From an uncultured Thermoplasmata archaeon (GTDB taxonomy: Archaea; Thermoplasmatota; Thermoplasmata; CAZPOY01), in the NCBI GenBank assembly GCA_964588345.1, contig CAZPOY010000002.1:1-40961 (forward strand): a stretch of DNA of 40,961 nt, read 5' to 3'. Position numbers and translations under genes: made by a program. The notes beneath the pieces are model-generated. The model saw only the letters and a program-made list of their open reading frames with translations. It was not told the origin of the DNA and ran no database searches. Every line of letters starts with the position of its first letter. Position 1 is the first letter of the stretch. Shown here one piece after another: positions 22,882 to 40,961 of this stretch.

Positions 22882-23691
22882 ATGACACTCGTTCAAGCTT
22901 CCATTGCAGATGGTGGAAATAGCGTAATACTGCTAGCAGACAGGTTGTGGACAAGGCACATGGGCTCTGATTTTGCCGAATACGGTTTCGAGGCGCGCAT
23001 GCCCAAAGTAAGGCGGTTTGGCAAGGTTGGAGTGGGTTTTGCCGGCAACGCCAACTATGCAGACTCGGCCTTCTCGATGATATCCAAAGAAATGGACCTT
23101 GACGACGTGGTCCCTCTGATCTCGCAATACATCCGAGAAGAGTGGGAGAAGATTGTTGACCGGTTCATTCACGAGCATACGGGGATGGAAGCAAATGAGT
23201 TTTTCAAACTGAAGAATGATACCATCATTCCCGAGGACATCATAACCCTCATATACGGATACCTGGCTGACCTGGAGATAAGTTTCAATAGCATAGTGAC
23301 GGGGTTCGACAAAAACGATAAAGCCCGAATCGTGGTCATTTCAGGCAACGGCGAGGTGATGGATGCGACCTTTGCAGGTTCCTATTCGATAGGCGAGGGA
23401 GGCGATTTCTCGATAATTTATTTCGACCAGAAAGGGTACAACGTCGTTGAATATTCAGAAGCCGAAGCCGTTTATTTCGCCTTCGAAGCCAAGAAATGGG
23501 CTGAAGCACCCACCAGCGTTGGAAGGAAGACGGATGTCATAATCCTGAGGAAAGACGGGACGCACCGCGTCATTGAAGAAGAGTCGGACATCATGAAGTT
23601 CCTCTGCAACACGTACAATCAGGAAAGGGACATGATTAAAAAACATCGCAAGGAGACCTGCAAGGAATTCGAAAAAATGTGCGTGGGATGA
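22882..23691 (+). CDS. Orphan proteasome-beta-like (T1 family / Ntn hydrolase) protein with no propeptide
   Basis: [21 protein letters not shown] aligns by eye to the proteasome beta N-terminus (TTxxxxxxDGxVxLAADxR). Later matches are PKV...[12 protein letters not shown] (cf. K33 and GxAGxxAD), SIGEGGDF (cf. AIGSG) and [14 protein letters not shown] (cf. SGGxxxVxxIxKDG). Thr immediately follows the initiator Met. Confidence 0.6.
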
Positions 23692-31848: not shown

Positions 31849-32286
31849 GTGGCCGATGAAGAAGACCTCAAAAAGGAAATCCGGGAGCTCAACGATAGGA
31901 TAGGTCAGCTTGAGAACATGATTGGGACCATGATGAAGCCCATGAAGAGCATGCAGTCCAGCACGGCGAAATACGTTCGCCTTGTGAATCTTGCCATGGA
32001 ACACGGAGGGCTTACGCCGGACATGGTCTATCCCGAAATCAAGGATTCCATTTCCAAGGAGATAGTCAACGTCTTGATGAAGGACAACGGCCAGAACATT
32101 TCTCAAATTGCAGACAATCTGAGGGAGGAGAGGGGGTCGGCATCCAGGAGAACCGTGCGCAACAAACTGAAGGAACTCGAAGACAAGGGCATTGTTGAAA
32201 AGAGGGGCGACGGAAAAGTTAAGAAATACTACTTGACCCAGAAAGTGCTCGAAAAGTGGTCACGATTGCTCGGCATCAATATATGA
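31849..32286 (+). CDS. Winged-helix transcriptional regulator with an N-terminal coiled-coil-like segment
   Basis: GQNISQIADNLREERGSASRRTVRNKLKELEDKGIVEKRGDGKVKKYYLT fits the wHTH pattern. The start is GTG. Confidence 0.55.
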   Translation: MADEEDLKKEIRELNDRIGQLENMIGTMMKPMKSMQSSTAKYVRLVNLAMEHGGLTPDMVYPEIKDSISKEIVNVLMKDNGQNISQIADNLREERGSASRRTVRNKLKELEDKGIVEKRGDGKVKKYYLTQKVLEKWSRLLGINI

Positions 32287-32319
32287 TTTGCTCGACCATA
32301 TAGATATTAGGTGAAAAAA

Positions 32320-32508
32320 ATGGAACACCCGATGCCTGAAAAGCCAGGAAAAAACGACCTGCCCGACCCACAGCAGATAGGAGAGTTGCTGGACGTGGTG
32401 ACCGAAAAGTTGCCTCGCCTCCTCGAAGTGATATCCGAATGCTCGGAAAGTGGGCAGAAGTGCTCGATATCGATAAATGAATTGCACACCCATATAGATA
32501 ATAGGTGA
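32320..32508 (+). CDS. Small protein, a truncated paralogue of the next gene
   Basis: An AGGTGA SD precedes ATG 32320. The N-terminal segment KNDLPDPQQIGELLDVVTEKLPRLLEVIS parallels GNDDLPDPEQIGEILDVVSQKVPHLLREIS of the downstream gene, then the two diverge. The stop lies inside the next gene's SD. Confidence 0.4.
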   Translation: MEHPMPEKPGKNDLPDPQQIGELLDVVTEKLPRLLEVISECSESGQKCSISINELHTHIDNR

Positions 32509-32513
32509 TGAAA

Positions 32514-32834
32514 ATGAACCACCACGAAAAAAAGAAACATGGAAATGACGACCTGCCAGACCCCGAACAGATAGGCGAAATTCTGGACGTAGTGTCCCAG
32601 AAAGTCCCGCATCTACTGAGGGAGATATCCGACATCCTCTATGGAGAAGGGAGCGCAAAGAAGTACGCCGGGTCCGTGGCCACCTTTTACAAGGAACTCA
32701 AGGCCTCGGGAATGACGGATGCGGAAGCGTTTGCCCTTACCCAGCAATACATGTCGGCCCTCAATGTCGGAAAGACCATGGGAGATTTCGGAGGAAGCTT
32801 CGGTAGCGTCAATGTAAACCAGGATGACGAATAG
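32514..32834 (+). CDS. Small conserved-looking protein of unknown function
   Basis: An AGGTGA SD lies 6-7 nt before ATG 32514; the track start is GTG 32505. The protein contains FYKELKASGMTDAEAFALTQQYM. Confidence 0.5.
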   Translation: MNHHEKKKHGNDDLPDPEQIGEILDVVSQKVPHLLREISDILYGEGSAKKYAGSVATFYKELKASGMTDAEAFALTQQYMSALNVGKTMGDFGGSFGSVNVNQDDE

Positions 32835-32845
32835 GGAGGTTTACT

Positions 32846-33073
32846 ATGGGCAACGGAGGCCTGCTGAGAGGGCTCAAGTTCATGGGAATCGTCCCGAAAT
32901 CCCTTCCCCTTGCAGTCAAGATGGGAGGAAGCATCGTCAAGCTCAAGCTCGCATCAAGGAAAGCTTCCAAAACCTTCAAAAAGGAGCTGGAAAAGCAAGG
33001 GCTTGACTACGAAACGGCTGAAGCCCTGGCCGACATCTACAAGAAGGGTGCGGACCTGGATTTCGGGGACTGA
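32846..33073 (+). CDS. Small protein sharing a C-terminal motif with 32514..32834
   Basis: A GGGAGG sequence lies upstream. FKKELEKQGLDYETAEALADIYK parallels FYKELKASGMTDAEAFALTQQYM in the preceding gene. Confidence 0.45.
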   Translation: MGNGGLLRGLKFMGIVPKSLPLAVKMGGSIVKLKLASRKASKTFKKELEKQGLDYETAEALADIYKKGADLDFGD

Positions 33074-33345
33074 ATTTTTTCTTTTGATTTTCTTCATTTT
33101 ATATTTTTTCCGATTCGAATTTTTCCATTTTTCATTGTTATTGGGTGGGTATAAGCACATCGAAGAATGGTGGACGGTAGGTTGGCGGGAAATATATCAC
33201 TAATTTTTTTATTTCCATTAAGCACCCATGTGAAAGCGCATCAATCATGCAATTAGTGGGGGAGGAAACCAACGATCCCTAGTTGGCCTTTAGTCGATTC
33301 AAATGAATGAAAGAATAAATAGCGTACAATCGAATTACTCTTTGA

Positions 33346-33663
33346 ATGCCCTACTATGTTTATGTGATAGAACTGGACCTTTCTGTAACGGAATCAAAGA
33401 AATTCATGCGCAGGAACAAAAAAATGAAGAAAGGGAAAAAGTGCTTTTATGTGGGGCAAAGCGCCAAGAAGCCAAAAGAGAGATTTAATCAACATTTGAC
33501 TGGTTACAAGTCTAATTATTTCGCAAGAGAATACGGAATGAAATTAAGGAAATGGTGGGTATGGCGGATTAACCCATTAAAAACACGTAAAGAAGCAGAA
33601 AAGGAAGAGAAAAAGCTTGCTAAGAAATTGAAGAACAAGGGTTATGGTGTTTGGTGGGGATGA
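33346..33663 (+). CDS. GIY-YIG nuclease-domain protein (stand-alone, 105 aa)
   Basis: YYVYVIEL (GIY-like) ... CFYVGQS (YIG-like) ... RFNQH ... a conserved Glu within KEAEKEEKKL. It sits in AT-rich surroundings. Confidence 0.6.
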   Translation: MPYYVYVIELDLSVTESKKFMRRNKKMKKGKKCFYVGQSAKKPKERFNQHLTGYKSNYFAREYGMKLRKWWVWRINPLKTRKEAEKEEKKLAKKLKNKGYGVWWG

Positions 33664-33736
33664 GAAAATCCGTTCACTCAGTTTTTCCAATCATAAATAT
33701 TATATCTCCCTCCAACTTCTCAACCCTTGCACAATC

Positions 33737-33931
33737 GGAGAGGTAACAGAGCCCGGTCATGTGGGGGACTTCAACCCAAAAAAATTGGGTCTCACTCAAC
33801 CTTCCCCTGCGGAGAAGGATTCGTTGCAGACGGAAGTTTCCGGCTGATATCCTCATACAGGAGTTCAAACCACGCCCAATCCTACGGATTTGGCTTGCTC
33901 GCGAATAAATACGCTCGTCTCCTCCTCTCCA
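33737..33931 (+). tRNA. tRNA-like gene, interrupted copy: three blocks identical to the downstream copy, separated by 55-nt and 48-nt inserts
   Basis: Blocks 33737-33770, 33826-33869 and 33918-33931 are 34/34, 44/44 and 14/14 identical to 33976-34067. The inserts are 33771-33825 (right after U33 of the anticodon loop) and 33870-33917 (inside the T-loop, TTCAAA|T). An ATAAATATTATAT TATA-like box lies upstream. Confidence 0.5.
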
Positions 33932-33975
33932 ACAACAAAAAGATTAAGATTAACCTTCCAATTCACAAGCAAAAA

Positions 33976-34067
33976 GGAGAGGTAACAGAGCCCGGTCATG
34001 TGGGGGACTGCAGACGGAAGTTTCCGGCTGATATCCTCATACAGGAGTTCAAATCTCCTCCTCTCCA
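33976..34067 (+). tRNA. tRNA-like gene with 26 nt in place of the 7-nt anticodon loop; anticodon GCA (Cys) if a 19-nt intron is removed at position 37/38
   Basis: Manual fold: acceptor GGAGAGG/CCTCTCC; U8; D-arm ACA-G-AGCCCGGTC-A-TGT; anticodon stem GGGGA/TCCTC; variable loop ATAC; T-arm AGGAG-TTCAAAT-CTCCT; discriminator A. An oligo-T tract follows at 34068-34073. The A73 and the absence of a clean bulge-helix-bulge keep the identity uncertain. Confidence 0.6.
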
Positions 34068-34080
34068 TTTTTTCATATTT

Positions 34081-34290
34081 TTAGAGAAAAAATGACAGAG
34101 GATTAGACGGGAAAACGACGTTTTCCCTTACTCCTCCTCTCCAGAATAATGTAGTTATTTTATTAGAAAAAATGACAGAGGCATCAACGGGAAAACGGGG
34201 TTTTCCCTTACTCCTCCTCTCCAAGAATGACACATTGGAATTGTTTTTAGAAAAAATGAATGAGGATTCGTTGAGGATTTCGCAGAAATC
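34081..34290 (+). repeat. Three tandem units of about 83 bp (starts 34081, 34163, 34247). The first two end in the tRNA 3' 13-mer CTCCTCCTCTCCA preceded by a conserved 8-bp hairpin
   Basis: Each unit begins TTAGA(G)AAAAAATGA. The hairpins are GGGAAAAC-GAC-GTTTTCCC (34109-34127) and GGGAAAAC-GGG-GTTTTCCC (34189-34207). The 13-mer occurs at 34131-34143 and 34211-34223 and is identical to 33919-33931 and 34055-34067. The third unit has diverged but carries AGGATTCGTTG, which is also found at 33816-33826. Confidence 0.8.
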
Positions 34291-34327
34291 ATCGACGAAA
34301 CTAATCTTTGATTGGTTCCAACCCAAT

Positions 34328-34479
34328 CTTGACATGTCAAGCTTAGGTTTCACCCCAAATTTGACAAGCAAATCTGGTTTTTACTCAACTTTGCCATGCT
34401 TCTTTTTTATGATATGTCAAAGTTGCGTTTCACTCGACTTTGACAGAAATACCCTAATAAATGTCAAAGTCGCGTTCCA
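34328..34479. promoter_or_regulatory. Cluster of TGTCAA/TTGACA-based sites (palindrome, inverted repeat, direct repeat)
   Basis: There is a perfect 14-nt palindrome CTTGACATGTCAAG at 34328-34341 and a TTGACA at 34361-34366. ATGTCAAAGTTGCGTTTCA (34414-34432) and ATGTCAAAGTCGCGTTCCA (34461-34479) match 17/19. TGTCAAAGT and ACTTTGACA form a 9-bp inverted repeat within 34415-34445. Confidence 0.6.
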
Positions 34480-34534
34480 AACTGAAAATTTCGTTCTTAC
34501 ACAACCTATGATGTCCCTGAACATCACGATTTTT

Positions 34535-34666
34535 TTACTTTGTATCTTTTTTATCATTACCCTCTTTCAGCCACTTTGCATACATCTCAATGAATTTTAG
34601 ACGCTCTTGGAAATTCTTTTTCTTTTGAGCGTCAAGTTCCTCAAGGTCCACTTTTGGAAATGTCAT
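34535..34666 (-). CDS. Mini-ORF (43 aa), hypothetical
   Basis: My own translation gives MTFPKVDLEELDAQKKKNFQERLKFIEMYAKWLKEGNDKKDTK. It is translationally coupled (TAAATG) to the preceding mini-ORF. Confidence 0.3.
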   Translation of the reverse strand: MTFPKVDLEELDAQKKKNFQERLKFIEMYAKWLKEGNDKKDTK

Positions 34667-34771
34667 TTAAGATGCCTCCAATACTTCAATGAAGTCAAGC
34701 ACGAATTTGTCTAAAGATTCCAGGTTTCTTTTTATTTGATAACCCGAATCCTTTTTTTCAATCTTCATCAT
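34667..34771 (-). CDS. Mini-ORF (34 aa), hypothetical
   Basis: My own translation gives MMKIEKKDSGYQIKRNLESLDKFVLDFIEVLEAS. Its stop TAA is directly followed by the ATG of the next mini-ORF. It is below the track's length cutoff. Confidence 0.25.
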   Translation of the reverse strand: MMKIEKKDSGYQIKRNLESLDKFVLDFIEVLEAS

Positions 34772-34878
34772 CCTATAGAAAGAATGGAATTCATGATATT
34801 TCAAATTGACTATTAAGCTTCATATTTTTCCCACCTATTGCACATGAAGGTTTTCCAATATCACCTCCACCTGACCAA

Positions 34879-35058
34879 TCAATGCCTTCCAATCCGGTCG
34901 GTTTTTTCTTGGAATGTAATGATTTGTGGATTTTGCTACAATTCCCGGGTCCATCCATTCATTGCTTCTATTACGTCGGTTGAAAATATGACCCCCTTTT
35001 CCGGGACTATGTCCAGTATGTTTCGTTCAACGGGGGAAAGGTAGTAATTTTTCTGCAT
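34879..35058 (-). pseudogene. Possible decayed small HTH-like gene with an in-frame TAG
   Basis: MQKNYYLSPVERNILDIVPEKGVIFSTDVIEAMNGWTREL, then TAG (34936-34938), then QNPQIITFQEKTDRIGRH and TGA. Further 8-10 codon ORF fragments follow downstream, which suggests decay. Confidence 0.25.
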
Positions 35059-35264
35059 TAAATAATTGATATGGTTATTAACTAAATAAATTCAACTACT
35101 TTGAGAATATTGTATTATTCGTAAATCATACATTTCATCAATTTTTCATGGTTATGTCTGTCTGATAGATTGTATGTTGAGTACAGATATATCCCTTCTT
35201 CTCATGACTAATTAATCTAACGGATAACTGTACACTGACAGGGAGTTTAATCACTCCTCCCAGG

Positions 35265-35771
35265 ATGGAGAAGGTTTTGCCTGAACTTGAACGGTGGTTG
35301 AAAGAATATCGGAAAAGAGACATCGAAGGAGAGGAGGTTTTCAGATTGGGGGCTTGGATGCATTACGAATTTGAAAGGATTCACACCTTTGCAGACGGAA
35401 ACGGCAGAATAGGACGGCTTTTATTGAATCTCCATCTTATTAAAAGAAACTGGCCTCCGGTTCACGTTCTTCCCATGCATCGAAACGATTATCTTCACGG
35501 GCTGAACGAGGCTTCAAACGGTGATTTCAATGAACTTGAGAACCTGTTGAAGGTCTTGATGGCTTCCAGTCTCCTGGACCTCCTTGACCAGATTGGGACA
35601 TCCAAGGATGAACTCTTGCCCTTGAAGGCATTTACGGAATCAACTTCATACAGTTCCCAATATCTCGCTCTCAGATGCAAGCAGGGAAAATTCCCGGCTC
35701 TCAAGGAAAGAGGCGAATGGCGGACTACGAAAAGGGCCTTGGAATTATATACAAAGCATATTGCAAGGTAG
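35265..35771 (+). CDS. Fic-domain protein (AMPylase family), N-terminally short, with a C-terminal HTH-like tail
   Basis: HTFADGNGRIGR matches the Fic motif HxFx(D/E)GNGRxxR. Only 41 residues precede the motif, and the frame is closed by TGA at 35205-35207. Confidence 0.8.
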   Translation: MEKVLPELERWLKEYRKRDIEGEEVFRLGAWMHYEFERIHTFADGNGRIGRLLLNLHLIKRNWPPVHVLPMHRNDYLHGLNEASNGDFNELENLLKVLMASSLLDLLDQIGTSKDELLPLKAFTESTSYSSQYLALRCKQGKFPALKERGEWRTTKRALELYTKHIAR

Positions 35772-35855
35772 AGATATATCACTTTGAAATTCAAAATTAT
35801 CCCATAAATATCCCACCAAAAACTAATAATCCATCCCGCTTTTGACCTTCTGGAG

Positions 35856-37259
35856 ATGAAGATGTCACTCAAGGTCTACAATACAGCGACCCGTGAAAAA
35901 GAAGAGTTCGTGCCTGTAAACGACAAGAAAGTGGGCATGTACGTTTGTGGCGTCACGGTTTACGACCACTCTCACATCGGGCACGCCCGTTCATATGTTG
36001 CCTTCGACGTCATCAGAAGATATCTCGAATACAAGGGATACGACGTCACATACATTCAGAATTTCACCGATGTCGACGACAAGATTATCAAAAAAGCCAA
36101 AGAATCTGAAAGGAATGCCCTTGAAATCAGTTCCGAATACATCGATTCCTACATGGAGGACATGCACCGGCTGAATGTAATGGACGCAAACCATTATCCC
36201 AAGGCCAGCGAGTTCATCCCGGAGATGATAAGTGTCGTCGAAGACCTCATCGAGAAGGGTCACGCATACGAATCCGACGGCGACGTTTATTTCTCGCTCA
36301 CATCGGCCCTGGACCGTTTCGGAACCCTTACCCATCAATCACCCGAAGACATGATGGCTGGTGCAAGAGTTTGCGTGACCGATGCGAAAAAAGACCCCCG
36401 GGATTTCGCCCTTTGGAAGAAAGCCAAACCCGGTGAAATAAAGTGGGACAGCCCCTGGGGAGAAGGACGGCCTGGCTGGCACATCGAATGTTCCACCATG
36501 TCCACCCATTACCTCGGACCCACCCTCGACATCCACGGGGGAGGGCAGGACCTGATGTTCCCACATCACGAATCCGAAATTCTGCAAAGCGAATGCCACA
36601 CGGGAGAAAATTACTGCAAGTACTGGTTACACAACGGCTTTGTCCAGATTAACCAGGAGAAGATGAGCAAGTCCCTGGGCAATTTCTTCACCATCAAGGA
36701 AATTCTGAAAAAGTATCACCCCATGGCCCTGAGGTTTTTCCTGGTTTATACGCATTACCGGTCCCCCATCGATTTTTCCGACGAGCACATGGACGAAGCG
36801 GGCAAGAGTTACCAGCGACTTAAGAGAACCTATCTCGACCTAAAGGAATTTGAAGCGTGCGGTGAGAGCGTGGACCTCATAGACGAAAGCAAGAATGCTC
36901 TTGAGGATTTCGAAGGGGGGATGAACGACGACTTCAACACAAGGGACGCCCTTGCCGCCACTTTCGATCTTGTGAGGAAGGTCAATCAGTCTTTGAATCA
37001 GAATCGCATTTCTCAAGATGAAAAAGAGCACCTCTTGAGCGTTTTCGACAAGATGTGGTCGGTCTATGGTTTCACATTCGAAGAAGAGAAGGCCGAGGGG
37101 CTTGAAGAAGACCTCATCAAGTTGATGCTTGAGATACGTGAAAAAGCAAGAGAGAACAAGCAGTGGGATACCGCCGATGCGATCCGTGATGGACTTTTAG
37201 ACCTGGGAATCCTCATCGAGGATTCGGACCAAGGCCCCAAGTGGCGCATGGAGGAGTAA
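35856..37259 (+). CDS. cysS: Cysteine--tRNA ligase
   Basis: It has an LKVYNT N-terminus, HIGHARSY (the HIGH motif), KMSKS and the WHIECS zinc-site region. Confidence 0.95.
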
Positions 37260-37260
37260 G

Positions 37261-37836
37261 TTGCCCGAATACTACCCGTGGGGAGGCGAATTCCATACGG
37301 GCAATCCTGATTCCAGCATCGCTGTGGCAACCCTGGCAAAGAAAATGAAATTGCCTGAAGACAAAGTAGCCATCCACGGCCCAGTGAAAACGGAAAACCT
37401 TGGTGTGGAAAAGGTCGTGGCCAACATCATCTCCAATCCCCATATCCGCCATCTCATCGTTTTTGGTGAAGAGGTCAAGGGGCATCGGTCCGGTCATTCT
37501 CTTGTCTCGCTTTGGAAAAACGGTTTTGACGATAACGGCAGGATAATCGGGGCCAAGGGCGCCGTCCCTTACGTCGAGAATTTGGACCTTGAAGCGGTAA
37601 GAAGGTTTCAGGAACAGGTGACGGTCCACGACATGATAGGAAAGACGGACGAAGAAGAGTTGATGGCGGCGGTCACCGAACTTTACGAAAGAAATGACCC
37701 ATCCTTTGGTGACCCCTACATCGCCATCAAGGCCGAGCGCGTCAGCACGGTAAGTCTTTCGGACAAGGCGGCCCTTCACGAAACCATCCTCATCGACCCG
37801 TATCTTGAAGTGAAAAAAATGGACAGGAGTGAATGA
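37261..37836 (+). CDS. MtrA-like corrinoid-binding protein, soluble (no C-terminal membrane helix)
   Basis: YPWGGEFHTGNPDSSIAVATL and IVFGEEVKGHRSGHSLVSLWKNG, which contains the cobalt-ligand His region, resemble tetrahydromethanopterin S-methyltransferase subunit A. The TTG start lies 1 nt after the cysS stop. Confidence 0.7.
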   Translation: MPEYYPWGGEFHTGNPDSSIAVATLAKKMKLPEDKVAIHGPVKTENLGVEKVVANIISNPHIRHLIVFGEEVKGHRSGHSLVSLWKNGFDDNGRIIGAKGAVPYVENLDLEAVRRFQEQVTVHDMIGKTDEEELMAAVTELYERNDPSFGDPYIAIKAERVSTVSLSDKAALHETILIDPYLEVKKMDRSE

Positions 37837-38764
37837 TTTGCTGGGATTTTCAAGTGAACAGAGAGAGGTGAAGTTAGGCAACATCACCATAGGCGGGCAA
37901 CCGGGAAAAAACCCCACATTGCTCTTGGGGACGGTGCTCTACGGAAAGAAATACCGCACCCTGAACGACGACAATCGGAATGAAGCGAAAAAATTCATCG
38001 AGGTCCAGCGCGAGGTTTCGGAAAAGACGGGCGTTTGGTCCATGGTGGACGTTTATCTGCCCAGTTCGGAAACGGCGAGGCAGCGCCTGGAATTTGTAAT
38101 CGACCATCTCGAAGAAGGCGAATTCATCTCCATTGACGTTCCCGAATCGGAAGTGCGGACCAAAGCGTTGAAAATCCTTTCTGAAATGGGTTTTCTTCAA
38201 CGAACCCTCCTGAATTCCATCAATCTGGGGATAACGGAAGAAGAGAGAAAAGCTTTGGAAGACAATACACCCGCTTCAGCTATCCTCCTTGCATACGACC
38301 CGAGGGACATGTCCACCCACGGTCGCTTGAACATGATAAAGAACGGGACTAGAGAGATGGAAGAAGGATTCCTGGACCTTTCTGAAAGACTGGGCATGCT
38401 TCCGATAATTGATACGGCTGCCACGCCTTTTGAACACAGCGCCGCTGAAACGTTGCGGGCCATCCCCGTTTTCAAGGAGGACCTGGGCATTCCCGTGGGC
38501 TGTTCCATTCACAACATCGTAGAGTCGTGGCGATGGATGAAGAAATACAAGAAGGAGAACAAGGGCATCTATCTCTATTCAGACGTCGGTTCAGCCGGAC
38601 TTCCTTTGACACTGGGAGCAGATTTTCTGGTTTACGGACCCATCCGGAACGCCGGACCCGTATTCCCTTACGTCGCTTTCGTCGACAAGATAATTGGAGA
38701 AGGAGGCAGGGACTATTTCGGCGTCGAAGCGCATGAAAGGCATCCCGTTCGGAGACTACCATGA
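37829..38764 (+). CDS. MtrH-like methyl-pterin:corrinoid methyltransferase
   Basis: FSSEQREVKLGNITIGGQPGKNPTLLLGTVLYGKKY matches the MtrH N-terminal signature. The GTG start overlaps the mtrA-like stop by 8 nt. Confidence 0.75.
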   Translation: MNDLLGFSSEQREVKLGNITIGGQPGKNPTLLLGTVLYGKKYRTLNDDNRNEAKKFIEVQREVSEKTGVWSMVDVYLPSSETARQRLEFVIDHLEEGEFISIDVPESEVRTKALKILSEMGFLQRTLLNSINLGITEEERKALEDNTPASAILLAYDPRDMSTHGRLNMIKNGTREMEEGFLDLSERLGMLPIIDTAATPFEHSAAETLRAIPVFKEDLGIPVGCSIHNIVESWRWMKKYKKENKGIYLYSDVGSAGLPLTLGADFLVYGPIRNAGPVFPYVAFVDKIIGEGGRDYFGVEAHERHPVRRLP

Positions 38765-39702
38765 ATGACGGGGCAATACCAGGAAAATTCAAATTAAATG
38801 AAAATGAATTGACCACAACGGTAGTCGGAAGTTTCCCGGAATATCCAAGGCCTTTTGAAATAGATGAATCAAGAAAGCATTTTCAAAACGACCCTTTCGA
38901 AGGTCCTTTTAGAAGGAGCATCGAAGCCCAGATAAGTGCTGGAGTGGACATCATTTCCGACGGACAGACCCGGGCGGACATGGTTTCCCTTTTCACCAGA
39001 AATCTCGGGGGTTTCCGGATGAAGGACAAATGGGAGGTAATAGGAGACGTCTCTTACCGGAGGTCCATCACAGTTGACGACCAGGTCCGTGCAAAAGGTC
39101 TCATCGGTGGCAGAACGTTTCTCAAGGGCATAATCACCGGTCCTTTTACCATTTTCAAATCCGTGAGAAATCTTCATTACGAGGATGCAGACGAACTCAT
39201 CTTTGACCTTGCGGGAGCGTTGAATGAGGAAGCGAGAAAATTATCAAAAACCGTTGACGTACTGCAGTTCGACGAACCGTTTCTCTCGGTTGATTATTAT
39301 GAGAAAAGTGATGAAATGATGGAGAAACTTGTCGACGGCGTTGATGTCCCGATTTCGTTACATGTATGCGGTGATGTTTCTGATGTTATTTCATCGTTGA
39401 ACGAACTTCCGGTGGACATATTGGACCACGAATTCGCCAAGAACCCTCATCTCATCGAAGCGTTTGGACAGGCAAGCTGGGAAAAAAGCATTGGATACGG
39501 ATGCGTAAGGTCGGATGATACCAGGGTGGAAACCGTTTCTGAAATCGAAGAGAACATCCGGCGCATCCTGAAACATTTTCCTGCCGAAAGGATTCTCCCC
39601 GACCCGGACTGCGGTCTGGGGAACCTTGACATTACTTCAGCAATGGGAAAGCTGGAGAACATGACCCAGGCCGTTTCGAATGTTCGGGAGGAACTTCCTT
39701 GA
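38761..39702 (+). CDS. Core (single-domain) MetE-type methionine synthase
   Basis: TTVVGSFPEYPRP is at the N-terminus. The zinc-ligand pattern is LHVCGD (HxC), DHEF (Glu) and DPDCGL (Cys), as in the MetE catalytic domain. At 313 aa there is no folate-binding N-terminal half. The start overlaps the upstream stop (ATGA). Confidence 0.75.
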   Translation: MNDGAIPGKFKLNENELTTTVVGSFPEYPRPFEIDESRKHFQNDPFEGPFRRSIEAQISAGVDIISDGQTRADMVSLFTRNLGGFRMKDKWEVIGDVSYRRSITVDDQVRAKGLIGGRTFLKGIITGPFTIFKSVRNLHYEDADELIFDLAGALNEEARKLSKTVDVLQFDEPFLSVDYYEKSDEMMEKLVDGVDVPISLHVCGDVSDVISSLNELPVDILDHEFAKNPHLIEAFGQASWEKSIGYGCVRSDDTRVETVSEIEENIRRILKHFPAERILPDPDCGLGNLDITSAMGKLENMTQAVSNVREELP

Positions 39703-39989
39703 ACTCTTTTACGGAAAAATTCGTCAGGGACCCAAAGGGCTTCTTTCTCATCTACCTGGACGAAAAACGGGAGAAAATCGTCGTCGAGCACTATCACAAT
39801 TCGAAGCTCCACAAGGCAGGGGCCGGCAAGCTGAACGTGGTCATCGAGGGGACCGATGGAAAAAAAATTCTGCGGGAAATCGAAAGACGAGGACTCATCG
39901 GGAGAGAAGACCACAGGCAATATATGGAACGGGAACTGATAAGGGCGCAAGAAGCCCTGGAGAGAGGGACGGAGTTCGTGCAGGCGTGA
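39699..39989 (+). CDS. Small protein resembling DUF4346 (a domain often found with pterin-binding proteins)
   Basis: DPKGFFLIYLDEKREKIVVEHY ... HRQYMERELIRAQEAL recalls the DUF4346 pattern as I remember it; this needs an HMM check. The TTG start overlaps the metE-like stop (TTGA). Confidence 0.45.
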   Translation: MNSFTEKFVRDPKGFFLIYLDEKREKIVVEHYHNSKLHKAGAGKLNVVIEGTDGKKILREIERRGLIGREDHRQYMERELIRAQEALERGTEFVQA

Positions 39990-40201
39990 AAGTGCATTTA
40001 AAAAAAATAAGCATGAATTACGTTCTTCTCGAAGTATCTTTCCACCGTGTAGGCCATATTAGGCCTTAGATGGCCCATGAATATGTGTCAATTACGGATT
40101 GGGGGGGTGGGTTAAAGTGACTACGTAAAAAATGAATTGAAAAAATCATTTAAAAAATATTATATATGAAAAACCCATTTCGGTGCATAGGTGAGGTTGG
40201 T

Positions 40202-40333
40202 ATGACAAAAAACCACATTTTCCCAATAGTCGCAGTGTTTTTAATGGTAAGTTCCGCGTTCTTTGTAACTGGAATGGCATCAGAAAAAGAAAGTACAAAA
40301 ACGGATAATCCAACCAGAGAGATTTTCTTATGA
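40202..40333 (+). CDS. Mini-ORF (43 aa) with a signal-peptide-like N-terminus
   Basis: An AGGTGAGG SD lies 5 nt upstream. The product is MTKNHIFPIVAVFLMVSSAFFVTGMASEKESTKTDNPTREIFL. The stop overlaps the next ATG (ATGA at 40330-40333). Confidence 0.3.
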   Translation: MTKNHIFPIVAVFLMVSSAFFVTGMASEKESTKTDNPTREIFL

Positions 40334-40941
40334 GAAAAACCTCTGAAAATGAATCAGTTAGAAAAATAGGATTAATATTATTAATGTGGTCAATAATATG
40401 TATAATGCTAAACCCCAGTTTCATTTCGAAGGCGGGTTATGACTCAACCAATTGTGAGATTAATGATATTCCGTGGGCTGGTCTTAGAGGAAATGAACAA
40501 AATACAGGTTGTAGTCAAATCAACACGAGTAAAAATAACGGTCAATTGATTTGGTCTGCGAAAACAGGGGAAATATTGAGTTCAGGTATTGTAATCAGCA
40601 AAAACAACACATTATTTTTCTGCTCTAAGGAAAGCACGCTTATCTCATTATTGAATGGAACGATTATGTGGAGATTTAACACAACCCACGATACTCCCTC
40701 AACTCCTGCTATTGGAAATAATGAAATGATTTATTTTGGTTCTAGGGATAGTTATTTGTATTCTGTAACTTCTGAAGGAGTTCTTGAATGGAAATACAAA
40801 ACTGGTGGTGCAATAAATCATAGTCCTTTAGTTGGAAACAACGGTACAATTTATTTCGGTTCGGATGACCATCTTTTCTATGCTCTGAACCCAGATGGAA
40901 CCTTAAAATGGACATTTAGAACAAATGGAGAGATGAAATGA
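40330..40941 (+). CDS. Secreted PQQ/BamB-like beta-propeller repeat protein, ending at an in-frame TGA with the repeat continuing beyond it
   Basis: It has an N-terminal hydrophobic helix. The repeats read W..KTG..I.SSP.IG.NGTIYFGS.D..LYA. The gene is AT-rich compared with its neighbours. After the TGA at 40939-40941 the same frame reads VLIGNG, which continues the repeat pattern. Confidence 0.65.
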   Translation: MRKTSENESVRKIGLILLMWSIICIMLNPSFISKAGYDSTNCEINDIPWAGLRGNEQNTGCSQINTSKNNGQLIWSAKTGEILSSGIVISKNNTLFFCSKESTLISLLNGTIMWRFNTTHDTPSTPAIGNNEMIYFGSRDSYLYSVTSEGVLEWKYKTGGAINHSPLVGNNGTIYFGSDDHLFYALNPDGTLKWTFRTNGEMK

Positions 40942-40961
40942 GTTTTAATTGGAAATGGGAG

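What the first reader, a model, noticed from the sequence alone, without database searches (positions are those of the whole stretch)
35856..39989. A cysS - mtrA-like - mtrH-like - core metE - DUF4346-like operon: a predicted self-contained corrinoid route to methionine
Five genes are packed with gaps or overlaps of 1 to 8 nt (TAAgTTG, GTG...TGA, ATGA, TTGA), which implies co-translation. MtrH-type proteins transfer methyl groups from methyl-pterins to a corrinoid. MtrA is the corrinoid carrier, and here it is a soluble form with the GEEVKGH His region but no membrane helix. Single-domain core MetE enzymes lack the folate-binding half and are thought to take methyl groups from corrinoid proteins. 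Together these genes would encode methyl-H4MPT or methyl-H4F -> Co-MtrA -> homocysteine, which uses methanogen-type Mtr parts for biosynthesis rather than energy conservation. The DUF4346-like partner and the linkage to cysteinyl-tRNA synthetase are unexplained additions.
Basis: partly seen in the sequence, partly recalled or inferred. Interest (0 to 1): 0.6.

Follow-up and report, generated by a model that had tools for sequence, protein, structure and literature searches.

The report
Soluble B12-relay methionine synthase operon
A non-methane-making Thermoplasmata archaeon carries, directly behind its cysteinyl-tRNA synthetase gene, a widely conserved four-gene cassette that most likely makes methionine by passing a methyl group from methyl-folate through a soluble vitamin-B12 carrier protein to homocysteine, which would give a job to "methanogenesis" genes (mtrA/mtrH) found outside methanogens.

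Summary
Five co-oriented genes, cysS, a 191-aa anchor-less MtrA homologue, an MtrH homologue, a MesA-type core MetE and a DUF4346 protein, sit 1 nt apart or overlap by 4-8 nt.

The genome is a 92%-complete Thermoplasmata MAG. It has one MtrA, one MtrH and one MetE-family gene. McrA, MtrE, MCH, CdhD and a MetH-type domain were not found. FolD, MTHFR and AhcY are present.

The order MtrA-MtrH-MesA-DUF4346 recurs in 63 of 80 related loci (Thermoplasmata, Altiarchaeota, Undinarchaeota, other DPANN). MTHFR lies directly upstream in 28 of them. cysS is never linked elsewhere.

Cobalt-ligand, zinc and homocysteine-binding residues are at least 97% conserved. Module-linked MesA forms its own clade beside the stand-alone methanogen MesA.

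Best reading (0.78): CH3-folate -> MtrH -> Co-MtrA -> MesA -> methionine.

DUF4346 proved to be a recurrent fusion partner of soluble MtrA domains, so it is probably an accessory of the corrinoid protein. The activase and the cobamide source remain open.

The papers searched call non-methanogen MtrAH "unclear" or propose a CoM methyltransferase. Price 2021 only predicted an MtrA-to-MesA transfer.

This scan noted the same cassette before in at least five other genomes. This window adds a new member with an incidental cysS fusion. No biochemistry exists.

The parts
35856..37259 (+). cysS, cysteine--tRNA ligase (467 aa). It is the first gene of the tight cluster here but is not part of the conserved module.
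   Evidence: TIGR00435 559 bits (cut-off 340) and PF01406 448 bits. A 1-nt gap separates it from mtrA-like. There is no CysS hit in any of 80 related loci or 7 class relatives.
37261..37836 (+). Soluble MtrA-type corrinoid protein (191 aa). The corrinoid-binding Rossmann core is residues 1-158. Residues 159-191 form a tail that is conserved but predicted disordered, and it replaces the membrane anchor.
   Evidence: PF04208 169 bits. 5LAA at E 2.7e-40, with His75/Glu45 aligned to the Co-ligand network His84/Glu54. AF2 core pLDDT is above 90 and tail pLDDT below 50. Foldseek matches 5L8X/5LAA/9QTR at rmsd 1.4-1.7 A. No TM helix. H75, E45 and tail H173 are at least 97% conserved in 59 rows.
37829..38764 (+). 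MtrH-type methyl-pterin:corrinoid methyltransferase (311 aa; probably starts at TTG 37838, giving 308 aa).
   Evidence: PF02007 218 bits. TIGR01114 229 bits, below the equivalog cut-off of 271. MtgA model 133 bits. Best solved relative is MtrH of the Mtr complex, 9QTP, 172 bits; MtgA 6SJ8 scores 115 bits.
38761..39702 (+). MesA-type core methionine synthase (313 aa): a single Meth_synt_2 domain with no folate-binding half.
   Evidence: NF002119 272 bits (cut-off 258) and PF01717 153 bits. Zn ligands H201, C203, E224, C284 and homocysteine-binding S24, Q69, D171 are at least 97% conserved in 64 rows. It is the only PF01717 match in the genome. It lies in the module-linked clade of the tree.
39699..39989 (+). 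Stand-alone DUF4346 protein (96 aa), a three-strand plus two-helix domain. It is probably an accessory or docking partner of the MtrA-type corrinoid protein.
   Evidence: PF14251 67 bits. AF2 pLDDT 89.5. No informative structural match. It is present after MesA in 57 of 80 loci. It is fused directly behind the MtrA domain in 9 of 10 long MtrA-superfamily proteins scanned and in L108.

Best explanation
The four genes after cysS encode a split, soluble, cobamide-dependent methionine synthase.

Inferred mechanism:
1. MTHFR, encoded elsewhere in this genome and directly upstream in many relatives, makes 5-methyl-tetrahydrofolate or a close folate analogue.
2. The MtrH-like TIM-barrel enzyme transfers the methyl group to cob(I)amide bound His-on to the soluble MtrA-like protein.
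3. The zinc enzyme MesA transfers the methyl group from methyl-Co(III)-MtrA to homocysteine, giving methionine and regenerating Co(I).

This is the chemistry of MetH spread over three polypeptides, built from the two catalytic 'methanogenesis' subunits and a core MetE.

DUF4346 is proposed to be an accessory of the corrinoid protein: a cap, tether or docking element. This is the weaker part of the reading, about 0.35 on its own. cysS is a lineage-specific passenger of the transcription unit.

Shown: gene content, conserved order, conserved catalytic residues, the MtrA fold, and the failure to find alternatives in the genome. Inferred: every transfer step, the direction, the identity of the pterin, and the DUF4346 role.
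For: Domains and junctions.

Own genome (92% complete):
- It has a single MtrA, a single MtrH and a single Meth_synt_2.
- Not found: McrA, MtrE, MCH, CdhD/CoFeSP and a MetH/BHMT Hcy-methyltransferase domain.
- The only other B12-binding domain is a 223-aa protein that has no methyltransferase neighbour.
- Present: FolD, MTHFR on C22, cut by the contig end, and AhcY, which supplies homocysteine.

Synteny in 80 loci from other species: 26 are MTHFR-MtrA-MtrH-MesA-DUF4346, 23 are MtrA-MtrH-MesA-DUF4346, 7 are MtrA-MtrH-MesA, 2 are MTHFR-MtrA-MtrH-MesA, and 5 are cut by contig ends. Median HSP gaps are 6-50 bp. The module is also found in 7 class relatives from 4 families at 40-55% identity.

Class sample of 401 genomes: 58 carry a full-length orthologue. 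Counts by family are f9 11/13, f15 37/44, f17 4/5, f21 2/2 and f23 2/2.

The 8 module-bearing genomes of the 41-genome sample:
- The module MesA is the only PF01717 hit in each.
- McrA 0/8, ComA 0/8 and CdhD 0/8.
- CdhD-bearing families lack the module.

Residues: the Co ligand His75 and Glu45, the Zn ligands and the Hcy-binding residues are at least 97% conserved.

Tree: module-linked MesA forms one clade (SH-aLRT 91-92). It is apart from the stand-alone methanogen MesA and 22-28% identical to other Thermoplasmata MetE-family proteins.

Literature: MesA uses methylcobalamin but not methyl-pterins in vitro. Its physiological donor has been sought since 1999, and MtrA was predicted as that donor (PMC7857596, PMC7005905).
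Against: - There is no experiment and no RNA data.
- No RACo-type reductive activase was found in the genome or near the module. A second Thermoplasmata MtrA-MtrH type does sit beside RACo. How Co(II) would be repaired is therefore unexplained.
- CobS was not found in this genome or in any of the 8 module-bearing genomes sampled, so the cofactor would have to be scavenged.
- The MtrH-like protein scores below the MtrH equivalog cut-off, and its pterin is untested.
- HcyBio was not found, so de novo homocysteine synthesis is not established; only recycling through AhcY is.
- Gene order cannot give the direction of methyl flow.
- Absences rest on a 92%-complete MAG in 183 contigs.
- Some lineages lack DUF4346, and a few keep MesA-DUF4346 apart from MtrAH.
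Confidence: 0.78

Rival explanations
1. The cassette is catabolic and runs in reverse. A methyl-thioether (methionine, methylthiols or a related compound) is demethylated by the MesA-like enzyme onto Co(I)-MtrA. MtrH then passes the methyl group to folate, and MTHFR and FolD oxidise it, as in corrinoid-dependent methylotrophy.
For: MtrH-family enzymes such as MtgA work in the methyl-corrinoid-to-folate direction (NF047990 match; 6SJ8 match). MTHFR adjacency and FolD fit either direction. Gene order does not give direction.
Against: MesA is the only methionine-synthase candidate in this genome and in all 8 module-bearing genomes sampled, so the biosynthetic direction is needed. [quoted passage not shown] From established knowledge, methyl transfer from methyl-Co(III) to a thiolate is strongly favoured, and no methionine:corrinoid demethylase is known. 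No substrate-specific transporter or further catabolic gene recurs nearby.
Confidence: 0.08
2. The genes are neighbours, but MesA takes its methyl group from another donor, for example the 223-aa B12-binding protein on contig C20 or free methyl-cobamide. MtrA/MtrH would serve another acceptor.
For: A second corrinoid protein exists in the genome. Three loci keep MesA-DUF4346 together without MtrAH within 6 kb, and methanogen MesA genes stand alone.
Against: MtrH lies within 150 bp of MesA in 55 of 63 loci across several phyla. The C20 protein has no methyltransferase neighbour. No alternative acceptor gene recurs with MtrAH. The Km of MesA for free methylcobalamin is above 20 mM (PMC7857596).
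Confidence: 0.07
3. MtrAH with the MetE-like protein is a methyl-tetrahydrofolate:coenzyme M (or other small thiol) methyltransferase, as proposed for Methanomassiliicoccales MtrAH.
For: This was proposed for the 'Lake Pavin' Methanomassiliicoccales MAG (PMC6147122). MetE-family enzymes are zinc thiol methyltransferases in general.
Against: McrA was found in 0 of 8 and ComA in 0 of 8 module-bearing genomes, including this one. The MetE-like protein passes the MesA methionine-synthase model and scores 18 bits against the methylcobalamin:CoM model. The MtrAH type found in this class beside RACo, with a C-terminally extended MtrA as described for that MAG, is a different and more distant type without MesA.
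Confidence: 0.04

Closest known systems
MesA, the methylcobalamin:homocysteine methyltransferase (core MetE) of methanogens (METE_METTM; Schroeder and Thauer 1999; Price et al. 2021, PMC7857596)
   Same: It has a single Meth_synt_2 domain of about 310 aa without the folate-binding half. It has the same His/Cys/Glu/Cys zinc site and the same Ser/Gln/Asp homocysteine site, with Gln in place of MetE Glu484. It passes NCBIfam NF002119. It is 35-41% identical to Methanococcales MesA.
   Different: It is found in a non-methanogen, whereas the family was reported 'solely in methanogens'. It forms a separate clade. It is hard-wired in an operon to a soluble MtrA and an MtrH, whereas methanogen mesA genes stand alone.
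MtrA and MtrH of the membrane-bound N5-methyl-H4MPT:CoM methyltransferase MtrA-H
   Same: It has the same MtrA fold and His-on cobamide ligation (44-49% identity, rmsd 1.4-1.7 A). The MtrH family match is 172 bits to MtrH of 9QTP. The first half-reaction, methyl-pterin to Co(I), is presumably the same.
   Different: There is no transmembrane helix and no MtrB-G, so no Na+ pumping. The acceptor is homocysteine through MesA, not CoM through MtrE. The pterin is probably folate. A conserved 35-residue soluble tail replaces the anchor.
Cytoplasmic MtrA homologues of methanogens (5LAA; Wagner, Ermler and Shima 2016, PMC4915002)
   Same: It is anchor-less, shorter than 215 aa, and has the same cobalamin site. 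The function of those homologues is also unknown.
   Different: Those are 60-97% identical to the resident membrane MtrA and are not reported beside mtrH or mesA. This one is about 48% identical, carries a distinct conserved tail, and lies in a conserved operon.
MetH (cobalamin-dependent methionine synthase)
   Same: The overall chemistry is the same: methyl-folate to cob(I)alamin to homocysteine, with a pterin-binding TIM barrel, a His-on corrinoid and a zinc thiolate site.
   Different: It is three separate polypeptides from unrelated families: an MtrA Rossmann domain instead of the B12-binding domain with its cap, and a MetE-type instead of a BHMT-type Hcy domain. It has no SAM-dependent reactivation domain. 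No PF02574 match was found in the class sample.
MesB/MesC core methionine synthases with the CoFeSP of the Wood-Ljungdahl pathway; three-component corrinoid methyltransferase systems (MtaABC, MtgA-type)
   Same: The logic is the same: a core MetE or MT2 enzyme takes the methyl group from a separate corrinoid protein that an MT1 enzyme has loaded.
   Different: The donor here is an MtrA-type protein, not CoFeSP or an MtaC-type protein. Module-bearing genomes lack CdhD. No RACo/RamA activase was found.

Membership tests
MesA core methionine synthase (Price et al. 2021) | Single catalytic Meth_synt_2 domain with no N-terminal folate-binding domain | tested here: met
   313 aa. PF01717 covers residues 18-305. 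PF08267 scores only 20.7 bits, below its cut-off of 27.
MesA core methionine synthase (Price et al. 2021) | Zinc ligands His/Cys/Glu/Cys, and homocysteine-binding Ser/Gln/Asp with Gln in place of MetE Glu484 | tested here: met
   H201, C203, E224, C284 and S24, Q69, D171 are all at least 97% conserved in 64 aligned rows. Positions correspond to those listed in PMC7857596.
MesA core methionine synthase (Price et al. 2021) | Sequence threshold: at least 174 bits to METE_METTM (about 40% identity) | not tested
Two proxies: the NCBIfam equivalog NF002119 scores 272 bits against a cut-off of 258, and identity to Methanococcales MesA is 35-41%.
MesA core methionine synthase (Price et al. 2021) | Methyl transfer from methylcobalamin, not methyl-pterins, to homocysteine | not testable with these tools
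   This needs an enzyme assay.
MtrA (corrinoid subunit of MtrA-H) | MtrA fold with His-on cobamide ligation (His84/Glu54 network) | tested here: met
   PF04208 169 bits. His75/Glu45 align to His84/Glu54 of 5LAA. The model superposes on 5L8X/5LAA/9QTR at 1.4-1.7 A.
MtrA (corrinoid subunit of MtrA-H) | C-terminal transmembrane helix and membership of an mtrEDCBAFGH complex | tested here: not met
   No hydrophobic segment (maximum KD19 0.78). MtrE was not found in the genome. TIGR01111 scores 158 bits against a cut-off of 249. It therefore belongs to the MtrA superfamily but is not the Mtr-complex subunit.
MtrH (methyl-H4MPT:corrinoid methyltransferase subunit) | MtrH family domain; equivalog-level score | tested here: inconclusive
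   PF02007 scores 218 bits, so family membership is met. TIGR01114 scores 229 bits, below the equivalog cut-off of 271. Pterin specificity is untested.
Three-component corrinoid methyltransferase system (MT1 / corrinoid protein / MT2 / activase) | MT1, corrinoid protein and MT2 encoded together | tested here: met
   MtrH-like, MtrA-like and MesA are adjacent here and in 58 other loci.
Three-component corrinoid methyltransferase system (MT1 / corrinoid protein / MT2 / activase) | ATP-dependent reductive activase (RACo/RamA) | tested here: inconclusive
   PF14574 was not found in this 92%-complete genome or among recurrent neighbours. It is present beside the second MtrA-MtrH type in L104.
Methylcobamide:CoM methyltransferase (MtaA/MtbA type) | URO-D-family fold; match to the curated model | tested here: not met
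   NF004889 scores 18 bits against a cut-off of 244. PF01208 gives E 0.004, below its cut-off.

The most novel reading that the evidence does not exclude
The soluble MtrA-MtrH pair is, in its own right, an old and widespread biosynthetic methyl relay for methionine, and perhaps for other acceptors such as the ThyA-like enzymes fused to MtrA-DUF4346. It would not be a 'remnant' of methanogenesis. MtrA and MtrH in ancestral-genome reconstructions would then not be evidence for a methanogenic ancestor. DUF4346 would be a previously unrecognised accessory domain specific to MtrA-type corrinoid proteins, acting as a cap, dock or repair element.
Probability: 0.25. Interest if true: 0.8.

Novelty: new variant of a known kind. 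Interest (0 to 1): 0.6.

Why it matters
First, the physiological methyl donor of the core methionine synthase MesA has been an open question since 1999, and Price et al. (2021) could only predict MtrA from phyletic patterns. A conserved mtrA-mtrH-mesA operon, often preceded by MTHFR, makes that prediction directly testable with three or four soluble proteins.

Second, several papers call the function of MtrAH in non-methanogens 'unclear' or 'unknown', or propose a CoM methyltransferase. The cassette offers a concrete housekeeping role.

Third, MtrA and MtrH are used as methanogenesis markers in ancestral reconstructions (PMC13473441). If a large share of them are methionine-synthase parts, those inferences need care.

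Fourth, it predicts that these uncultured Thermoplasmata, Altiarchaeota and DPANN lineages depend on scavenged cobamides to make methionine, which is relevant for cultivation.

Tried and rejected
- Searching genome contigs with the single MesA protein found no confirmed relative. The alignment query worked.
- A search for longer, fused relatives of the DUF4346 protein found nothing. Fusions were instead found through MtrA homologues.
- Foldseek and VIA-align searches with the DUF4346 model gave only noise-level matches: E at or above 0.18, Z at or below 6.9, to ribosomal proteins and EVH1/PH-like domains. No function can be drawn from them.
- I considered that methanogens feed MesA through an MtrA-DUF4346 fusion. 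That is not supported for Methanococcales and Mnemosynella, where the only DUF4346 lies in a DUF6513 + Pterin_bind protein.
- No RNA holder is listed for the stretch, so co-transcription could not be tested and read laying was not used.
- No riboswitch or other Rfam family other than the known tRNA was found in 32000-40961.
- No recurrent neighbour besides MTHFR was found. Flanking genes (glycosyltransferases, DUF1616, DUF58, CDP-alcohol transferase, aldehyde dehydrogenase) follow lineage, not function.
- 16S rRNA was not found in the MAG. The class name comes from the record titles of related loci and from the kinship given by the genome search.
- The cysS linkage was rejected as part of the system (0 of 87 other loci).

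Full report
OBSERVATION. The plus strand of window 35856-39989 holds five ORFs:
- cysS, 35856-37259
- an MtrA homologue, 37261-37836
- an MtrH homologue, 37829-38764
- a single-domain MetE, 38761-39702
- a DUF4346 protein, 39699-39989

I read the junctions in the sequence. Pfam and NCBIfam confirm every assignment. The MetE-like protein passes the curated 'methionine synthase' equivalog NF002119 (272 bits, cut-off 258). The alignment of 56 orthologues has Met at the position of MtrH Leu4 in 54 of them. The true mtrH start is therefore probably TTG 37838, 1 nt after the mtrA stop. This is a minor correction that leaves the packing just as tight.

THE ORGANISM. The window is the whole of contig C2 of a 1.83-Mb, 183-contig assembly that is 92% complete. 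It is archaeal. The nearest genomes are only 'same class', and record titles of related loci name the class as Thermoplasmata.

In this genome MtrA, MtrH, Meth_synt_2 and DUF4346 each occur once, all in this cluster. The following were not found:
- McrA and MtrE
- MCH, the H4MPT-pathway marker (0 of 41 genomes of the class sample)
- CdhD/CoFeSP
- a MetH/BHMT-type homocysteine methyltransferase domain (0 of 41)
- a RACo activase
- CobS
- HcyBio

The following are present:
- FolD
- an MTHFR cut by the start of contig C22 (PF02219 122 bits)
- SAH hydrolase
- one further 223-aa B12-binding protein with no methyltransferase neighbour

The organism is thus a folate-type, non-methanogenic archaeon without the Wood-Ljungdahl pathway. 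Its only recognisable methionine synthase is the gene in this cluster. All absences are provisional for a MAG.

CONSERVATION. Seven class relatives from four other families carry MtrA-MtrH-MesA-DUF4346 in the same order at 40-55% identity. Four of them have an MTHFR gene abutting mtrA (L017 and L019 by similarity).

A search of one genome per species with a MesA alignment returned 80 loci. Their layouts are:

| Loci | Gene order |
|---|---|
| 26 | MTHFR-MtrA-MtrH-MesA-DUF4346 |
| 23 | MtrA-MtrH-MesA-DUF4346 |
| 7 | MtrA-MtrH-MesA |
| 2 | MTHFR-MtrA-MtrH-MesA |
| 5 | MtrH-MesA-DUF4346 (cut by contig ends) |
| 3 | MesA-DUF4346 |
| 14 | MesA alone |

The module-bearing records are labelled Thermoplasmata/Thermoplasmatota, Altiarchaeota, Undinarchaeota, Nanoarchaeota and Aenigmatarchaeota. 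MAG labels can be wrong. They include UBA147 and UBA280, 'Methanomassiliicoccales' MAGs. UBA147 is named beside the SG8-5 order in a figure legend of Zinke et al., who left the SG8-5 mtrAH function unknown. Ten of the 14 lone MesA genes are from methanogens or Mnemosynella.

In an even sample of 401 genomes of the class, 58 have a full-length orthologue of the MtrA-like protein, concentrated in a few families: f9 11/13, f15 37/44, f17 4/5, f21 2/2 and f23 2/2. cysS is never linked elsewhere. No neighbour other than MTHFR recurs beyond lineage-level synteny.

THE PROTEINS.

MtrA-like protein:
- It matches the cobalamin-bound cytoplasmic MtrA homologue 5LAA at E 2.7e-40. His75 and Glu45 align with the cobalt ligand His84 and its hydrogen-bond partner Glu54.
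- Both residues are at least 97% conserved among 59 rows.
- An AlphaFold model has a core with pLDDT above 90. The core superposes on 5L8X, 5LAA and 9QTR at 1.4-1.7 A.
- No hydrophobic helix is present.
- Residues 159-191 are predicted disordered, yet they carry a conserved motif around His173 (A-L-H-x-x-L-x-x-D-P-aromatic). This is the signature of a tail that folds on a partner.

MtrH-like protein: it is closest to MtrH of the Mtr complex (172 bits), ahead of the methyl-corrinoid:folate enzyme MtgA (115 bits). It is below the MtrH equivalog cut-off.

MesA: it keeps the zinc ligands H201, C203, E224 and C284, and the homocysteine-binding S24, Q69 and D171. This includes the Gln that Price et al. 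describe for MesA and MesC.

In a maximum-likelihood tree of 88 sequences, the module-linked proteins form one clade (SH-aLRT 91-92). That clade is apart from Methanococcales-type MesA and Mnemosynella. All of these are far from other Thermoplasmata MetE-family proteins, at 22-28% identity. The window's protein is a long branch inside the module clade, consistent with its being the only sampled member of its family. It deviates from the 90% consensus at only two conservative positions.

DUF4346. The 96-aa protein folds confidently (pLDDT 89.5) into three strands and two helices but has no informative structural neighbour. Context says more.
- The MtrA superfamily comprises about 670 clusters at 50% identity.
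- Of ten long members scanned, nine carry DUF4346 immediately after the MtrA domain, and two of those also carry a thymidylate-synthase domain.
- A Thermoplasmata example is the 381-aa protein in L108.
- In Methanococcales and Mnemosynella the only DUF4346 is the C-terminal domain of a DUF6513 + pterin-binding (DHPS-like) protein.

DUF4346 thus travels with soluble MtrA-type corrinoid domains whatever the acceptor enzyme, and also with pterin-binding barrels. I infer an accessory role at the corrinoid protein, as a cap, tether to the pterin barrel, or docking element. My confidence in that is about 0.35. It is dispensable in some lineages (Undinarchaeota and some Altiarchaeota loci).

MECHANISM AND RIVALS. 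The best-supported reading is a split MetH-like relay: methyl-folate, then MtrH, then Co-MtrA, then MesA, then methionine.

Distribution within the class fits this. All 8 module-bearing genomes of the 41-genome sample have the module MesA as their only PF01717 match. None has CdhD, McrA or ComA. The families with CODH/ACS lack the module. This is the pattern expected if core methionine synthases use whichever corrinoid protein the cell has (Price et al.).

The rivals are as follows:
- Reverse (catabolic) direction: not excluded by gene order, but disfavoured because this is the sole methionine synthase candidate.
- Methyl-folate:CoM methyltransferase (Speth and Orphan): implausible without Mcr or ComA. 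I also found in this class a different, more distant MtrA-MtrH type with a C-terminally extended MtrA, the feature that paper describes. It has no MesA and sits beside a RACo activase.
- Co-location without functional coupling: hard to reconcile with conservation across phyla.

Open problems:
- No reductive activase was found.
- CobS was not found in any module-bearing genome sampled, so the cobamide must be imported.
- The pterin is unproven.

LITERATURE AND NOVELTY.
- Schroeder and Thauer (1999, as cited in PMC7005905) suggested a corrinoid protein, with MtrH as a candidate, as the real partner of the methanogen enzyme.
- Price et al. (PMC7857596) predicted MtrA as MesA's donor from phyletic patterns and reported MesA only in methanogens.
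- Papers on non-methanogen MtrAH call its role unclear or unknown.
- A 2026 reconstruction counts MtrA and MtrH towards a methanogenic archaeal ancestor.
- Full-text searches for the gene combination, and for DUF4346, found no description of this operon. The library is limited to open-access papers and preprints.

I therefore rate it a new variant of a known kind: a MesA-type methionine synthase physically wired to soluble MtrA/MtrH, in non-methanogens.

This scan has already noted the same cassette in at least five other genomes, with the same reading. Those are AI notes and do not count as independent evidence. What this window adds is a new, deeply branching member with an incidental cysS fusion.

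Noticed in passing
P0050 and P0028: Long MtrA-superfamily proteins fuse MtrA, DUF4346 and a thymidylate-synthase domain in one chain. The MtrA-DUF4346 unit therefore seems to serve acceptors other than MesA. Earlier scan notes describe MtrA-ThyA pairs.
   Followed up: partly
L104:6543-10715 (G102, family f26); also L105-L107: This is a second Thermoplasmata MtrA-MtrH type. MtrA is 264 aa with a C-terminal extension that is not DUF4346, and MtrH is about 30% identical to the window's. There is no MesA, and a RACo corrinoid activase with a ferredoxin domain lies next door on the opposite strand. It is present in 8 of 8 genomes of f26.
   Followed up: partly
window 37735-37833 (MtrA-like residues 159-191): The tail that replaces the membrane anchor is predicted disordered (pLDDT below 50). 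It nevertheless carries a motif conserved across phyla around His173 (ALHxxLxxDP-aromatic), which suggests a docking peptide.
   Followed up: partly
window 37693-37720 (MtrA-like residues about 145-154): The stretch aligned with 'KDPGA' of methanogen MtrA reads NDPSFGDP here and mostly DPGSFGEP in orthologues. Another note on this window links it to the Connectase-like proteasome homologue at 22882-23691. I did not examine this.
   Followed up: no
P0002: A 4917-aa protein contains 26 repeats that each match residues about 90-159 of the MtrA-like protein (E 1.7e-46). This is an unexplained giant repeat protein built from half an MtrA domain.
   Followed up: no
L020:6186-7616 (G028) and L108:5958-7100 (G129): These are MtrA domains with N-terminal extensions of unknown family, about 270 aa and 115 aa. 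The second ends in DUF4346 (NF002128-type architecture). The first lies before a 919-aa Big_7 repeat protein.
   Followed up: no
G000:C20:18592-19260 (L102:1219-1887): The only other B12-binding-domain protein of the genome (223 aa) lies between an ABC-F ATPase gene and an FtsX/MacB-type permease gene, with no methyltransferase nearby.
   Followed up: partly
window 34001-36000: This is an AT-rich stretch (GC 0.40 against about 0.50 elsewhere). It holds a 168-aa ORF (35265-35771) that matches only the C-terminal part of the Fic domain. It lies between the tandem tRNA-Cys genes (33737-34067) and cysS, so the tRNA and its synthetase are 1.8 kb apart.
   Followed up: no
L054, L056, L061 (Halarchaeoplasmataceae-like loci): MesA and DUF4346 stay adjacent although no MtrA or MtrH lies within 6 kb upstream. 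In L038, L049, L052, L058 and L076, 1-5 kb of unrelated genes separate MtrH from MesA.
   Followed up: partly
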